DNA of 64,000 nt from an uncultured Clostridia bacterium (GCA_944383015.1 CALWOC010000001.1:228148-292147), one strand, 5' to 3'; positions 32,661-34,552 are shown, counted from the first letter of the stretch. A program made the numbers and translations. Notes: generated from the letters alone by a model not told the origin.

Positions 32661-33332
32661 CTATAGTTGATTTACAGCTCTAGAAATGAATGTTATTATG
32701 TTAAATGTTGAGAAAATTAATATTACACCAATTACATATAATATTCCTTTTTCTTTTAATTTTGATTTACCTTCTGCTCCAGAGAACACATATTTAAATC
32801 CTATATATACAATTGCAACTAAAGCAAGTGCCTTAGCAACAGTTAAAATAATACCAAATATGTTTCCTAATGTTGCTTCTAATGAAGTAGGGTCAAACAA
32901 ATTAAAGTTTGATGTTCCATCTACTTTTGATACGCCAACACCGTTAAATGTAACTCCTGATATTAAAATTCCTCTTAAATTTGACCATCCAAAGAAGAAT
33001 AAACAAGCAACTAATAATGTAATCAAATTATCTTTAACATCTGCCTTTTGTGTAGCACTTCCTAATATATATCTTATACCTAAAACTACAGTTGCAATTG
33101 CTATAACACCTGTACCCACAATTTCAACAATATTTGCTATTTGACTTAATACACCTTGATCTAAGTACGTATTTGTTTCACCAGGTTTATACCATTCAGT
33201 AGCTTTATCCCAAAAATTATAATCATTACTTGTAGTATCTTCCGCTAAAACTATTTGAGTAGAAGAAAGTATAATTAATACTAAAGTAAATATATTTAAA
33301 GTGTTTATTATCTTTTTTATATAATTTTTCAT
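32661..33332 (-). CDS. Secreted protein with two tandem VirB2/TrbC-like pilin modules
   Basis: Start MKNYIKK behind GGTGAT, with a signal peptide. Modules ..VVLGIRYILGSATQKADVKDNLITLLV.. and ..IVYIGFKYVFSGAEGKSKLKEKGILYVIG.. Confidence 0.6.
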   Translation of the reverse strand: MKNYIKKIINTLNIFTLVLIILSSTQIVLAEDTTSNDYNFWDKATEWYKPGETNTYLDQGVLSQIANIVEIVGTGVIAIATVVLGIRYILGSATQKADVKDNLITLLVACLFFFGWSNLRGILISGVTFNGVGVSKVDGTSNFNLFDPTSLEATLGNIFGIILTVAKALALVAIVYIGFKYVFSGAEGKSKLKEKGILYVIGVILIFSTFNIITFISRAVNQL

Positions 33333-33521
33333 TTTTATCACCATCTTTTCTATAAAAATATTTCTACATATTATTATCAATATTACTTATTAGAGTATAG
33401 CATACTCAGAAACTGAATTTTAACATTTTTTAAAATTTTAATCATATTTTAATAAGTTCTTAATTTTATTTTAATGGTATTTTAATTATCTTGTAATAAA
33501 TTTTATTTTATATGCTATTAT

Positions 33522-33893
33522 TTAAAAAGCTTGATCTCCTGCACTTGCTATTATATTAATTATTGCATCTGCACTAGTTATAAGAAGTAGACCAAATAAT
33601 ATCCATAACATATTTTCTTTAATTTTACTCTTTCCTTCTGCACCTGCAGACATATATTTAAATCCATTAAATGCTAATCCAGCCACTCCAAGTACTTGTA
33701 ATACTGTCACAATAGTTGAAGAAATAGTTGTAAACATATTATTAATACGTTCATTACCATTATTTTCTACAATCGGATTAAGAATTCCTTCATCTACACC
33801 TTCACCTAAATCTGCATTTATATATTGTTGACTTGTAAAAGTAATGGCTACAAGTAATAGTATAAAAAAAATTCTATAAATTTTCCTTTTCAT
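33522..33893 (-). CDS. VirB2/TrbC-like pilin-type protein (123 aa)
   Basis: Signal peptide ending INA/DL, then LAFNGFKYMSAGAEGKSKIKENMLWILFG and a second TM helix. SD GGAGTG. Confidence 0.6.
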   Translation of the reverse strand: MKRKIYRIFFILLLVAITFTSQQYINADLGEGVDEGILNPIVENNGNERINNMFTTISSTIVTVLQVLGVAGLAFNGFKYMSAGAEGKSKIKENMLWILFGLLLITSADAIINIIASAGDQAF

Positions 33894-33926
33894 TTTTATC
33901 ACTCCTATACACTTCCTCTTATTATA

Positions 33927-33955
33927 ATTATATAATATTTTACTGCTAAGTTCAA
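33927..33955 (-). promoter_or_regulatory. Promoter of the 123-aa pilin-like gene
   Basis: Minus strand TTGAAC-17 nt-TATAAT. Confidence 0.45.
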
Positions 33956-33979
33956 TCTTTTTGCAAGGTTTTTACACAA

Positions 33980-34028
33980 AAACAGTTAATATTTTAAAGG
34001 TAAAATACACACATATAAACAGTTAATA
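33980..34028. repeat. Two exact copies of AAACAGTTAATA, 37 nt apart, upstream of that promoter
   Basis: Copies at 33980-33991 and 34017-34028 (plus-strand reading). Confidence 0.6.
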
Positions 34029-34141
34029 ACTTATATAAATAATCACCTTATCTGAGTCTAAAACACCATCATATTTTTTTAATCCATATTATAATTTTTT
34101 TATTTTATATTAAAATATATACATATTTTTATCTAAAAAAT

Positions 34142-34170
34142 AGAGATGGACTCTATATGAATCCATCTCC
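34142..34170 (-). terminator. Terminator after the first pilin-like gene
   Basis: Stem gagatgga/tccatctc followed by a T-run on the minus strand. Confidence 0.55.
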
Positions 34171-34240
34171 ATTAACTCAAGAGTTTAGATATTTTTATCA
34201 AAACTATTAATTAAGAACTGACTTTTTATATACCATTTTA

Positions 34241-34552
34241 TTATAATTGGCTACCAACATCAGTAATAATTTTAATTACAGAACTAGCTGCAAAAACTAG
34301 AATACCACCAATAACTAATGCAATCATACTATCTTTAATTTCCGCTTTTTTGTCAGCTCCTGCAAACATATATCTTACACCAGCAATAACTACAGCTGCA
34401 ACAGCTAAGATTTGTACAACTGTTATTACAGTATCTGCTATTTTTTGTGCGAAATTTGTAACAGCAGGAATGCCATCAGCATATACATAATTGCAAAGTA
34501 CTAGTGTAGCTACAAAAACTACTGGCATAACTCTTAACATAAATTTTTTCAT
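34241..34552 (-). CDS. VirB2/TrbC-like pilin-type protein (103 aa), candidate major subunit
   Basis: SD AAGGAGGGTG, signal peptide ..NYVYA/DG, VIAGVRYMFAGADKKAEIKDSMIALVIGG, then a second TM helix. Has its own promoter and terminator. Confidence 0.65.
   Translation of the reverse strand: MKKFMLRVMPVVFVATLVLCNYVYADGIPAVTNFAQKIADTVITVVQILAVAAVVIAGVRYMFAGADKKAEIKDSMIALVIGGILVFAASSVIKIITDVGSQL

What the first reader, a model, noticed from the sequence alone, without database searches (positions are those of the whole stretch)
32661..34552. Four VirB2/TrbC-like pilin modules in three consecutive genes, one of them an internal tandem duplication
All three proteins have a signal peptide and end in the same two-helix module with the shared core G-(V/F/I)-(R/K)-Y-x-x-(A/S/G)-(G/S)-A-x-x-K-(A/S)-x-(I/L/V)-K-(D/E):
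- 103 aa: AGVRYMFAGADKKAEIKD
- 123 aa: NGFKYMSAGAEGKSKIKE
- 223 aa, module 1: LGIRYILGSATQKADVKD
- 223 aa, module 2: IGFKYVFSGAEGKSKLKE

The 103-aa gene has its own extended -10 promoter (34586-34614) and a terminator (34142-34170), as expected for a highly expressed major subunit. The 123-aa gene has a separate promoter.

No outer-membrane components (VirB7/9/10-like) are visible in the cluster, which suggests a monoderm-type T4SS. Multiple VirB2-like subunits and a covalently duplicated one in such a system are unusual and functionally unexplored.
Basis: partly seen in the sequence, partly recalled or inferred. Interest (0 to 1): 0.7.

Follow-up and report, generated by a model that had tools for sequence, protein, structure and literature searches.

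The report
VirB2 pilin array in gut Clostridia
An uncultured gut Clostridia lineage carries, as a stable chromosomal feature, a type IV secretion machine with several VirB2-type pilin genes, including one ancient two-in-one pilin; current reviews say Gram-positive systems lack such pilins, apart from one recently described exception in Patescibacteria.

Summary
Three minus-strand genes encode signal-peptide proteins built from TrbC/VirB2 helix-loop-helix modules: pilA (34552..34241, 103 aa), pilB (33893..33522, 123 aa) and pilC (33332..32661, 223 aa, two modules).

Two VirB6-like proteins downstream of VirB4 (582 aa and 308 aa) each embed another such hairpin, giving six modules in five genes.

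The "internal tandem duplication" reading is wrong in the recent sense. The two halves of pilC are about 21% identical. Across 47 proteins each half forms its own clade. pilC is an ancient fusion of two distinct paralogues.

The double pilin is always the last pilin gene. It lies about 21 nt upstream of the VirB3-like gene with no terminator between them. It is therefore the first gene of the machinery operon, while pilA has its own promoter-like site and terminator.

The locus is not a mobile element. It sits between glycolysis genes and pgi. It is syntenic in 40+ uncultured gut Clostridia species, and VirB4 (median 80% identity) co-diverges with PGI. No relaxase is present in the window, and a VirD4-like coupling protein lies 17 kb away.

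The closest known analogue is the chromosomal, relaxase-less Patescibacteria T4SS with VirB2 arrays. This is a new variant of a known kind. Function is inferred only.

The parts
34241..34552 (-). pilA, 103 aa. Single-module VirB2/TrbC pilin and candidate major subunit.
   Evidence: Pfam TrbC 43.9 bits (cut-off 27.9) and T4SS_pilin 32.5 bits (cut-off 26.6). Orthologues are present in 40 loci, with core motif AGVRYMFASADxKADIKK. The best PDB profile hits are A. tumefaciens VirB2, aligned in register but not significant at E = 0.36.
34586..34614 (-). Promoter-like site upstream of pilA: TTGATT-17-TATAAT with TG.
   Evidence: This is weak evidence, because promoter-like hits are not enriched over shuffles in this region.
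34139..34173 (-). Intrinsic-terminator-like hairpin plus T-run after pilA.
   Evidence: 15-pair stem; 4 terminator-like sites found against 0.6 expected in the region. A terminator-like hairpin follows the first pilin gene in 22 of 42 related loci.
33522..33893 (-). pilB, 123 aa. Single-module VirB2-like pilin and the fastest-evolving gene of the locus.
   Evidence: Pfam TrbC 27.4 bits, just under the 27.9 cut-off. z = 24 against pilA. Median 32% identity across relatives. A promoter-like site lies at 33955..33927.
32661..33332 (-). pilC, 223 aa. Tandem (two-module) VirB2 pilin and first gene of the machinery operon.
   Evidence: Pfam TrbC 39.6 bits in two stretches. AF2 model shows helices 59-90/93-123 and 151-183/186-222. 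The family has 109 clusters at 90% identity and 106 representatives at 50% identity with E <= 1e-30. It is always the last pilin gene before the VirB3-like gene, with 0 of 42 loci showing a terminator after it and a median gap of 21 nt.
32964..33158 (-). pilC module 1 (residues 59-123). Carries the near-invariant LVACxFFFGW motif.
   Evidence: The C1 modules form one clade, 47 of 47.
32667..32882 (-). pilC module 2 (residues 151-222). Resembles pilA and pilB.
   Evidence: The C2 modules form one clade, 47 of 47. Identity to module 1 of the same protein is 0.15-0.29.
32229..32636 (-). VirB3/PrgI-like small membrane protein, 135 aa.
   Evidence: Only a weak Pfam PrgI hit in the window (E = 0.064). 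The orthologue in L003 has a precomputed PrgI hit. It is conserved in 42 loci at a median 56% identity.
30655..32208 (-). 517-aa bitopic protein between the VirB3-like gene and VirB4. TraC-like family by transitive homology.
   Evidence: No direct Pfam or NCBIfam hit. It is 36% identical (E = 4e-63) to the L046 protein that carries PF26593 TraC-like. BLASTP against the window VirB4 gives nothing.
28634..30640 (-). VirB4-like ATPase, 668 aa.
   Evidence: Pfam TraG P-loop, AAA_10 and DUF87. NCBIfam CD1110-family VirB4 at 224 bits, below the cut-off of 325. PDB 4ag5 VirB4 at E = 2.6e-27. It is 75-93% identical across the clade.
26869..28617 (-). 582-aa polytopic VirB6-like protein with an embedded VirB2-like hairpin (residues about 121-193, nt 28039..28257).
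   Evidence: Pfam T4SS_pilin at E = 0.0017. NCBIfam Mbov_0396 and MMCAP2_0566 ICE transmembrane proteins, both weak. hhalign of the pilA family against this family gives probability 86%, E = 4.8e-6, over 76 columns.
25924..26850 (-). 308-aa paralogue of the 582-aa protein with the same embedded hairpin (residues about 125-197, nt 26260..26478).
24768..25910 (-). 380-aa membrane and coiled-coil protein. Possible TrbL/VirB6-like fragment.
   Evidence: Weak TrbL_4 hit (E = 0.009). Conserved in the relatives.
23213..24646 (-). Two bitopic proteins (189 aa and 283 aa) of unknown role. Candidates for VirB8-like function.
   Evidence: Each has a single N-terminal TM segment. The 283-aa protein is conserved in 27 loci. 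No family hits. The VirB8-like role is inference only.
19897..23226 (-). 1109-aa bitopic protein. Candidate VirB1-like cell-wall hydrolase.
   Evidence: No Pfam or PDB hit for the window protein. Orthologues carry CHAP (weak, L003) or Peptidase_M23 (L044) hits. A Cys/His CHAP-like motif is visible by eye near the C-terminus.
34743..35237 (+). Secreted M23 peptidoglycan peptidase, divergently oriented next to pilA.
   Evidence: Pfam Peptidase_M23 at E = 1.2e-26. Kept next to the pilins in all loci that reach that far, including the most distant ones, L044 and L045.
35266..35889 (-). Two-OB-fold SSB (PRK05813 family) at the upstream edge of the conserved block.
   Evidence: NCBIfam NF004476 at 292 bits against a cut-off of 171. 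Pfam SSB in two stretches. The adjacency is kept even where the upstream flank differs.
52813..55362 (+). Unlinked VirD4-like coupling protein (T4CP), 849 aa.
   Evidence: Pfam T4SS-DNA_transf (E = 3.2e-10), TraG-D_C and TrwB_AAD_bind. NCBIfam CD1115-family VirD4-like, weak.

Best explanation
What it is. The region is the pilin array of a chromosomally fixed, vertically inherited, monoderm-type (MPF-FATA-like) type IV secretion system. The host is an uncultured low-GC gut Clostridia lineage.

Shown:
- The three genes encode VirB2/TrbC-family subunits.
- Each has a Sec-type signal peptide followed by a hairpin of two hydrophobic helices joined by a short, net-positive loop.
- This gives an N-out / loop-in / C-out membrane topology.

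Inferred:
- pilA has its own promoter-like site, a strong ribosome-binding site and its own terminator. It is probably the abundant major subunit.
- pilB, and the extra single pilins in relatives, are variable secondary subunits.
- pilC joins two ancient, functionally diverged hairpins through an extracellular linker of about 27 residues. It is co-transcribed with VirB3-like, VirB4 and the VirB6-like genes, so it is probably made at machinery stoichiometry.

Proposed mechanism (inferred). VirB4 extracts pilins from the membrane. The VirB6-like proteins, which themselves carry VirB2-like hairpins, form the assembly platform. The tandem pilin acts as a low-copy adaptor, nucleator or tip subunit between this platform and the pilA polymer. 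It would fill the role that VirB5 plays in Gram-negative systems. The M23 peptidase and the giant putative hydrolase would open the wall.

Likely use. The resulting filament or channel probably serves cell-cell contact and macromolecule exchange rather than transfer of a mobile element. The substrate would be DNA or protein, handled through the unlinked VirD4-like protein.
For: Family membership:
- Pfam TrbC and T4SS_pilin hits.
- The top PDB profile hits are VirB2, aligned in register over both helices, though at a non-significant E = 0.36.
- The AF2 model of pilC shows two helix-loop-helix hairpins with pLDDT 71-85 in the helices.

T4SS context:
- VirB4: PDB 4ag5 at E = 2.6e-27 and NCBIfam CD1110 family.
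- PrgI-like, VirB6-like, M23 peptidase and hydrolase genes.
- No outer-membrane components detected.

Chromosomal and vertical inheritance:
- The flanks are gap-pgk-tpi-pgm-eno and pgi/ytfJ.
- Gene order is the same in 40 GTDB species representatives plus metagenome contigs.
- VirB4 identity correlates with PGI identity (r = 0.84, n = 20). Mean VirB4 identity is 81% against 78% for PGI.
- No relaxase or integrase domain was found in the scanned ORFs of the window.

Division of labour among the pilins:
- No locus (0 of 42) has a terminator after the double pilin, and the median gap to the VirB3-like gene is 21 nt.
- 22 of 42 loci have a terminator after the first pilin.
- Terminator-like hairpins are enriched in the window region.

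Ancient fusion:
- C1 and C2 are each monophyletic (47 of 47).
- Within-protein identity is 0.21.

Platform hairpins:
- hhalign gives E = 4.8e-6.

Tip or adaptor idea:
- Many family members carry N-terminal extracellular extensions of 100-450 aa in front of the double module, for example P0198 and P0134.
Against: - No experimental data exist. There is no evidence that a filament is made or crosses a Gram-positive wall.
- Promoter predictions are no better than chance in this AT-rich DNA.
- pilB falls 0.5 bit below the Pfam TrbC cut-off.
- The PDB similarity to VirB2 is not significant on its own.
- Foldseek on the whole pilC model gave only generic helical-bundle hits at E > 1.
- The AF2 model is of moderate quality (mean pLDDT 68, pTM 0.43).
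- VirB2 is needed for substrate transfer in some systems without any visible pilus (PMC12857230). The proteins may therefore form only a short channel.
- The adaptor or nucleator role of pilC rests on gene order and analogy only.
- SSB adjacency may be plain ancestral synteny, because PRK05813 is a general clostridial SSB family.
Confidence: 0.6

Rival explanations
1. The locus is the transfer module of an integrative conjugative element (MPF-FATA, C. difficile CTn-like), possibly decayed. The pilins are accessory mating-pair-formation proteins for transfer of that element.
For: VirB4 and the T4CP are most similar to the C. difficile CD1110 and CD1115 ICE families. SSB genes and cell-wall hydrolases are typical ICE cargo. 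Mycoplasma ICEs have the same order of pilin-like gene, TM protein and VirB4, seen here as weak NCBIfam Mbov_0395/0396/0397 hits.
Against: The position between housekeeping genes is the same across 40+ species, and VirB4 co-diverges with PGI. VirB4 is as conserved as a glycolytic enzyme. No relaxase, integrase or repeats were detected in the window ORFs scanned. The T4CP lies 17 kb away among obg, a class I tRNA synthetase gene (W/Y) and secA. All NCBIfam ICE equivalog scores fall below their cut-offs.
Confidence: 0.1
2. The system is a DNA-uptake or DNA-exchange machine, like H. pylori ComB or the archaeal Ced/Ted systems. VirB2-like subunits would form the conduit for incoming DNA, and the adjacent two-OB SSB would coat it.
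For: The system is relaxase-less and chromosomal and has VirB2, VirB3, VirB4 and VirB6 homologues. The SSB stays next to the pilins even in the most divergent relatives, whose upstream flanks differ. ComB and Ced/Ted are precedents (PMC12857230, PMC9905601). Weak CedB and CedD NCBIfam hits appear on VirB4.
Against: ComB lacks a T4CP, whereas one is encoded here. The SSB belongs to a general clostridial family. The CedB and CedD scores are far below their cut-offs. Nothing in the locus shows the direction of transport.
Confidence: 0.2
3. The proteins are generic small two-helix membrane proteins, such as holin-like or channel-accessory proteins. Their resemblance to VirB2 would then reflect hydrophobic composition, and they would not polymerise.
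For: The hydrophobic hairpins also give weak hits to a holin family, inovirus coat protein and several DUFs. Foldseek is uninformative. The PDB E-values are not significant.
Against: TrbC scores exceed the curated cut-off for pilA and pilC. Similarity among modules holds up against composition-preserving shuffles, at z up to 24. In every locus examined the genes lie immediately upstream of the VirB3-like and VirB4 genes. The conserved loop motif G-x-(R/K)-Y-x-x-x-x-A-x-x-K-x-x-x-K is not a compositional feature.
Confidence: 0.05

Closest known systems
Chromosomal T4SS of Patescibacteria/CPR (Ca. Southlakia epibionticum ML1, Ca. Nanosynbacter lyticus TM7x) with VirB2-like pilin arrays (PMC12102498; PMC12857230)
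   Same: Monoderm host. Chromosomal, usually without a relaxase. PrgI/VirB3-like, VirB4 and VirB6-like proteins are present. Arrays of 2-11 sequence-divergent VirB2-like genes match PF04956/PF18895. M23-type peptidases count among the wall hydrolases. The T4CP is often encoded far from virB4. The locus is conserved across a reduced-genome, uncultured lineage.
   Different: The host here is Bacillota (Clostridia), not Patescibacteria. Whether VirB4 falls in or near the Patescibacteria clade was not tested. No fused tandem pilin and no hairpin-bearing VirB6-like proteins are reported there. Essentiality and an epibiotic lifestyle are unknown here.
Agrobacterium VirB2 / RP4 TrbC conjugative pilins (PF04956; T-pilus structures 8cue, 8exh)
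   Same: A long signal peptide, two hydrophobic helices joined by a short basic loop, and a gene next to virB3/virB4. pilA aligns in register with VirB2 over both helices.
   Different: Sequence similarity to solved VirB2 is marginal (E = 0.36). There is no outer membrane, no VirB5, no VirB7/9/10 and no VirB11. There are several paralogues plus a covalent tandem form. Cyclisation or lipid binding is unknown.
Multi-copy VirB2 systems of Bartonella (Trw trwL copies) and Anaplasma (virB2 paralogues)
   Same: Tandem arrays of divergent VirB2 paralogues in a chromosomal T4SS that does not transfer a mobile element. They are proposed to vary the surface or its binding specificity (PMC12857230, PMC12102498).
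   Different: Those hosts are Gram-negative and have outer-membrane core complexes and VirB5 copies. The paralogues there are separate genes, not fused. Trw lacks a T4CP.
Mycoplasma ICE pilin-like protein, TM protein and VirB4 trio (NCBIfam Mbov_0395 / Mbov_0396 / Mbov_0397 families)
   Same: A monoderm T4SS with a small pilin-like two-helix protein, a larger TM protein containing a related segment, and VirB4. pilB, the 582-aa protein and VirB4 each give their NCBIfam hits to these families.
   Different: All scores are below the curated cut-offs (27 against 40; 19 against 70; 193 against 590). Those are mobile ICEs with a relaxase and integrase functions.
Tad-type pilus cluster reported as the TANB77 'conserved pilin' (PMC11680825)
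   Same: It concerns uncultured, low-GC, reduced-genome gut Clostridia and a conserved pilus-like gene cluster. My recollection, not verified here, is that the CAG-named relatives belong to order TANB77.
   Different: It is a completely different machine: TadZ/CpaE/CpaF/TadB-C with type IV (Tad) pilins. That paper does not mention VirB2, TrbC or T4SS.

Membership tests
TrbC/VirB2 pilin family (Pfam PF04956) | Profile match at or above the curated gathering score | tested here: met
   pilA 43.9 bits and pilC 39.6 bits against a cut-off of 27.9. pilB at 27.4 bits is 0.5 bit below the cut-off, but it is strongly similar to pilA (z = 24).
TrbC/VirB2 pilin family (Pfam PF04956) | Signal peptide followed by two hydrophobic helices joined by a short charged loop (helix-loop-helix hairpin) | tested here: met
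   Hydropathy segments. AF2 helices 59-90/93-123 and 151-183/186-222 in pilC. The loops are net positive, read directly from the sequence. Cleavage sites were not predicted with a dedicated tool.
TrbC/VirB2 pilin family (Pfam PF04956) | Encoded within a T4SS locus next to VirB3 and VirB4 homologues | tested here: met
   Window gene order. The same order is seen in 42 loci.
TrbC/VirB2 pilin family (Pfam PF04956) | Significant sequence or structural similarity to an experimentally solved VirB2-type pilin | tested here: inconclusive
   The top two PDB profile hits are A. tumefaciens VirB2, but at E = 0.36 and 1.0. Foldseek on the pilC model gave no pilin hit.
TrbC/VirB2 pilin family (Pfam PF04956) | Polymerises into an extracellular pilus or is required for substrate transfer | not testable with these tools
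   Needs microscopy, proteomics or genetics in an organism that is currently uncultured.
Patescibacteria-type chromosomal T4SS with VirB2 arrays | Chromosomal, no relaxase near virB4, conserved across the lineage | tested here: met
   Housekeeping flanks. No relaxase domain in the scanned ORFs. Synteny in 40+ species and co-divergence with PGI.
Patescibacteria-type chromosomal T4SS with VirB2 arrays | Array of two or more divergent VirB2-like genes near virB4 | tested here: met
   Each locus has 2-5 pilin genes. Mean identity is 0.42 between the first and the later single pilins and 0.39 among the later ones.
Patescibacteria-type chromosomal T4SS with VirB2 arrays | VirB4 belongs to the monophyletic Patescibacteria VirB4 clade | not tested
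The host is Clostridia by record titles, so strict membership is unlikely. Analogy or shared MPF-FATA ancestry is more plausible.
Integrative conjugative element, MPF-FATA (C. difficile CTn-like) | Relaxase, integrase and linked T4CP; variable presence and position among genomes | tested here: not met
   No relaxase or integrase domains were found. The T4CP is unlinked. The position is fixed and syntenic. The NCBIfam CD1110 and CD1115 equivalog cut-offs are not reached.
Mbov_0395 family pilin-like conjugal transfer protein (NCBIfam NF045849) | Score at or above the curated cut-off (40 bits) | tested here: not met
   pilB scores 27.3 bits and pilA 16.2 bits.

The most novel reading that the evidence does not exclude
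A widespread, uncultured order-level lineage of gut Clostridia would build a VirB2-type pilus through a Gram-positive envelope, using a domesticated, core-genome T4SS. A conserved covalent tandem pilin, together with pilin-like hairpins inside the VirB6-like platform, would replace VirB5 as nucleator or tip. The organelle would underpin a cell-contact-dependent lifestyle, meaning acquisition of DNA or nutrients from neighbouring cells, parallel to the essential T4SS of epibiotic Patescibacteria. This would be a second, independent monoderm case. It would also suggest why these bacteria resist cultivation.
Probability: 0.25. Interest if true: 0.85.

Novelty: new variant of a known kind. Interest (0 to 1): 0.66.

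Why it matters
Standard accounts state that Gram-positive T4SSs lack VirB2 and VirB5. Guglielmini et al. [quoted passage not shown] The 2025 FEMS review (PMC12857230) names the Patescibacteria system as the single exception.

This locus shows a full VirB2 array in bona fide Clostridia. It is fixed in the chromosome, and its VirB4 is as conserved as a glycolytic enzyme across dozens of gut species from humans, rabbits, sheep and other hosts.

It also reveals two architectural features that I could not find described. One is covalently fused VirB2 pilins: two modules here, and 5 and about 11 modules in other metagenomic loci. The other is VirB2-like hairpins built into VirB6-like proteins.

Both features give concrete, testable hypotheses for how a pilus might be nucleated without VirB5. 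They also point to what a relaxase-less T4SS might do for reduced-genome, so far uncultured gut bacteria.

Tried and rejected
- Foldseek of the AF2 pilC model against the PDB gave only generic helical bundles at E > 1. Simple hairpins are beyond its resolution, so I did not use it.
- blastn of the locus against the plasmid collection found no match.
- phmmer of the 582-aa protein and of the C-terminal 436 aa of the 1109-aa protein against the PDB found nothing. The hydrolase assignment for the 1109-aa protein therefore rests on orthologue Pfam hits and a motif read by eye.
- BLASTP of the 517-aa protein against VirB4, to test a TrsD-like relation to the VirB4 N-terminus, was negative.
- I tried to verify that the lineage is GTDB order TANB77. 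The TANB77 paper has no held supplements, and the other papers did not list the CAG-465, CAG-1219 or CAG-921 genera. TANB77 membership remains my recollection only.
- I checked whether the published "TANB77 conserved pilin" is this system. It is not; it is a Tad-type cluster.
- Cluster look-ups found no source-given names for the double pilins.
- A literature search for fused or tandem VirB2 pilins found nothing relevant.
- The VirB4 homologue search was saturated by clade members at 81% identity or more. It could not show the nearest outgroup.
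Full report
**1. Observation**

The window is low-GC DNA (about 27%), and nearly all genes are on the minus strand. Three consecutive minus-strand ORFs lie at the stated coordinates:

| Gene | Coordinates | Length |
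|---|---|---|
| pilA | 34552..34241 | 103 aa |
| pilB | 33893..33522 | 123 aa |
| pilC | 33332..32661 | 223 aa from the ATG that matches homologue N-termini |

- Each protein starts with a K/R-rich hydrophobic signal-like segment ending VYA, INA or VLA.
- Each then has one (pilA, pilB) or two (pilC) pairs of hydrophobic helices joined by a short, net-positive loop.
- All six pairwise module comparisons beat composition-preserving shuffles, with z from 6.4 to 24.4.
- Pfam assigns TrbC/VirB2 (PF04956) to all three:
  - pilA scores 43.9 bits and pilC 39.6 bits (two stretches), against a cut-off of 27.9.
  - pilB scores 27.4 bits, just under that cut-off.
  - T4SS_pilin (PF18895) gives a second match to all three.
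- The extended -10 promoter-like site (34614..34586) and the terminator hairpin (34173..34139) are recovered.
- Terminator-like sites are enriched in the region (4 found against 0.6 expected).
- Promoter-like sites are not enriched (36 found against 36.5 in shuffles). I therefore treat the promoters as weak evidence.

**2. What surrounds it**

Downstream on the same strand lie the following genes:

- A VirB3/PrgI-like protein (32636..32229).
- A 517-aa bitopic protein.
- VirB4 (30640..28634). It hits PDB 4ag5 at E = 2.6e-27 and the NCBIfam CD1110 family at 224 bits, below the cut-off of 325.
- Two paralogous polytopic proteins of 582 and 308 aa.
- A 380-aa membrane and coiled-coil protein.
- Two small bitopic proteins.
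- An 1109-aa bitopic protein. Its orthologues carry CHAP or M23 domains.

Upstream are a divergently oriented secreted M23 peptidase and a two-OB-fold SSB of the PRK05813 family. No VirB7-, VirB9-, VirB10- or VirB11-like domain was detected.

The block is flanked by gap-pgk-tpi-pgm-eno on one side and by pgi and the sporulation gene ytfJ on the other. It is therefore chromosomal.

A VirD4-like coupling protein is encoded 17 kb away (52813..55362), among obg, a class I (W/Y) tRNA synthetase gene and secA. No relaxase or integrase domain was found in any ORF scanned.

**3.

An HMM built from the pilin modules also matched residues about 121-193 of the 582-aa protein and about 125-197 of the 308-aa protein. 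The same was true of their orthologues in every locus.

That HMM was iterated, so I checked independently. A profile-profile comparison of a pilA-orthologue alignment (A2) with an alignment of the N-terminal 230 residues of the 582/308 family (A3) gave probability 86% and E = 4.8e-6. The match covers 76 columns, which is the whole hairpin.

Pfam also gave a weak T4SS_pilin hit at the same place. The window therefore holds six VirB2-like hairpins in five genes.

**4. pilC is an ancient fusion, not a recent internal duplication**

- In the window, module 2 of pilC is closer to pilA (z 19) and pilB (z 17) than to module 1 (z 7.5).
- I compared 233 modules from 43 loci.
  - The N-terminal modules of the double pilins form one clade (47 of 47).
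  - The C-terminal modules form another (47 of 47).
  - The VirB6-like hairpins form a third (49 of 50).
- Within-protein identity between the two halves averages 0.21 (range 0.15-0.29). This is lower than the identity of module 2 to single pilins (0.28-0.30).
- Module 1 carries a near-invariant LVACxFFFGW segment in its second helix, and a conserved FW..A..W(Y/F) motif precedes it.
- The AF2 model, built on a 27-sequence alignment, has mean pLDDT 68 and 71-85 in the helices.
  - It shows two helix-loop-helix hairpins, at 59-90/93-123 and 151-183/186-222.
  - They are joined by a low-confidence polar linker (124-150).
- This layout is topologically consistent with N-out, loop-in, linker-out, loop-in, C-out.

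**5. The family and its distribution**

- The double pilin has 109 clusters at 90% identity. Most full-length members are about 205-245 aa, and none has a name from any source.
- An exhaustive profile search of 1.84 billion representatives clustered at 50% identity found 5395 proteins at E <= 1e-3, 718 at E <= 1e-10 and 106 at E <= 1e-30.
- Many members carry N-terminal extracellular extensions of 100-450 aa ahead of the double module, for example P0198 and P0134.
- There are also higher-order fusions:
  - a five-module protein (P0128) in a similar T4SS locus, L046 (GC 29%, VirB4 65% identical to the window's);
  - a protein of about eleven modules (P0245) on a 52%-GC contig, L047.
- I found no paper describing fused VirB2 pilins.

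**6. Fixed, vertically inherited locus**

- A scan of one genome per GTDB species returned 40 loci. All are uncultured gut Clostridia or Bacillota MAGs from human, rabbit, sheep and other hosts. They include Clostridium sp. CAG:465, CAG:1219 and CAG:921.
- Every locus long enough shows the order SSB, M23 (opposite strand), 2-4 single pilins, one (rarely two) double pilin, VirB3-like, 517-aa protein, VirB4, VirB6-like proteins and onwards. Most have pgi next to the SSB.
- In the most divergent relatives (L044, L045) the upstream flank differs, but SSB, M23 and the pilins stay together.
- Median identity to the window proteins across the loci:

| Protein | Median identity |
|---|---|
| VirB4 | 80% (range 75-93) |
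| PGI | 72% |
| VirB3-like | 56% |
| pilA | 47% |
| pilC | 38% |
| pilB | 32% |

- VirB4 identity correlates with PGI identity across loci (r = 0.84, n = 20, p = 3e-6).
- This is the signature of a core, vertically inherited machine with fast-evolving exposed subunits. It is not the signature of a mobile element.

**7. Operon logic**

- In 0 of 42 loci is there a terminator-like hairpin after the double pilin. The median distance to the VirB3-like gene is 21 nt.
- In 22 of 42 loci a terminator-like hairpin follows the first single pilin.
- In nearly all loci, 95 nt or more of intergenic DNA precedes the final double pilin (L016, L019 and L027 have 8-33 nt).
- The double pilin is thus the first gene of the machinery operon. 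pilA is a separately expressed, self-terminated unit.

**8. Mechanism (inferred)**

- The pilins insert by the Sec pathway with the loop in the cytoplasm.
- VirB4 dislocates them. This is established for Agrobacterium VirB4 and VirB2, as cited in PMC4027160.
- The VirB6-like proteins form the platform. This follows the R388 model summarised in PMC12857230.
- No VirB5 is present here. The platform proteins themselves carry pilin-like hairpins. The tandem pilin is made with the machinery and, in many relatives, carries a large N-terminal extracellular domain.
- I therefore propose that the tandem pilin is the low-copy adaptor, nucleator or tip subunit on which pilA, and the variable pilB-type subunits, polymerise.
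- The substrate is unknown. An unlinked VirD4-like protein and a nearby SSB are compatible with DNA. The absence of a relaxase argues against classical conjugation.

**9. Comparison with what is known**

- The literature states that monoderm T4SSs lack VirB2 (PMC4027160). The Patescibacteria T4SS is given as the single exception (PMC12857230).
- That system is chromosomal and largely relaxase-less. It has arrays of 2-11 divergent VirB2-like genes and often an unlinked T4CP. In Ca. S. epibionticum, T4SS genes including the pilin array are essential for epibiotic growth (PMC12102498, PMC12857230).
- The present locus matches that description feature by feature, but it lies in Clostridia.
- It adds the fused pilin and the hairpin-bearing VirB6-like proteins.
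- Curated databases already hint at VirB2-like proteins in monoderm elements, for example the NCBIfam "Mbov_0395 family pilin-like conjugal transfer protein". All such hits here are below their cut-offs.
- The "conserved pilin" published for the uncultured gut order TANB77 is a Tad-type pilus, which is a different system.
- I recall that the CAG-named relatives belong to TANB77. I could not verify this.

**10. Verdict**

- It is corrected on three points: the age and nature of the duplication, the module count, and the non-mobile, core-genome character of the system.
- It is a new variant of a known kind.
- Interest is moderately high. The locus contradicts a textbook generalisation and offers specific, testable structural hypotheses. 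All functional statements remain inference from sequence.

Noticed in passing
window 52813-55362 (+): An 849-aa VirD4-like coupling protein (T4SS-DNA_transf, TraG-D_C and TrwB_AAD_bind domains at residues 563-696). It is encoded 17 kb from the VirB4 cluster among housekeeping genes (obg, a class I W/Y tRNA synthetase gene, secA). It is unlinked, as reported for Patescibacteria.
   Followed up: partly
window 26869-28617 and 25924-26850 (-): Two paralogous polytopic proteins (582 aa and 308 aa). They share a signal peptide, a conserved FPWAD..IFN..P.LD.NFINP segment, an embedded VirB2-like hairpin and a C-terminal pair of TM helices. Some relatives have up to four such paralogues in a row (L035).
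   Followed up: yes
L046 801-2153 (P0128); L047 950-4393 (P0245): Covalently fused VirB2 arrays occur in other metagenomic lineages. One is a 450-aa protein with five modules in a similar T4SS locus (GC 29%). The other is a 1147-aa protein with about eleven modules on a 52%-GC contig next to a HEPN gene.
   Followed up: partly
P0198 (630 aa), P0134 (505 aa) and about 50 other representatives: Double pilins with N-terminal extracellular extensions of 100-450 aa ahead of the two hairpins. These suggest adhesin-like or tip-displayed domains.
   Followed up: no
window 35266-35889 (-): An SSB with two OB folds in one chain and no acidic C-terminal tail (NCBIfam PRK05813 family, 292 bits). It stays next to the M23 peptidase and the pilins even in the most divergent relatives, where the upstream flank changes.
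   Followed up: partly
window 19897-23226 (-): An 1109-aa bitopic protein with no Pfam, NCBIfam or PDB hit. Orthologues show CHAP or M23 domains, and the C-terminus has a Cys...His CHAP-like pattern by eye. It is a probable giant VirB1-like wall hydrolase that evolves very fast (26-28% identity).
   Followed up: partly
L001 9199-10810; L006 8167-9762; L013 9186-10621: Some relatives carry two consecutive double-pilin genes, giving six pilin-array modules. Single-pilin copy number therefore varies from 1 to 4 and double-pilin number from 1 to 2 within the clade.
   Followed up: partly
alignment A2 (pilA orthologues), columns 60-95: The segment between the signal peptide and helix 1 of pilA is hypervariable in length and sequence. 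It is nearly absent in the window and its closest relatives. The two helices and the loop are strongly conserved. This is the pattern expected for a surface-exposed N-terminus.
   Followed up: no
window 16126-17151 (-): A 341-aa cytoplasmic protein at the far end of the cluster, between an S1-domain gene and gap. It has no family hit in Pfam or NCBIfam. It was not covered by the related loci, so its conservation and any DNA-processing role are unknown.
   Followed up: no
window 55422-56417 and 56671-57471 (-); 5012-6898 (-) and 49098-50576 (+): Paralogue pairs sit among the housekeeping genes. There are two YgjV-like inner-membrane proteins in tandem, and two beta-CASP/RNase J-type metallo-beta-lactamase nucleases. 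A Fic-domain gene lies at 2497-3090.
   Followed up: no
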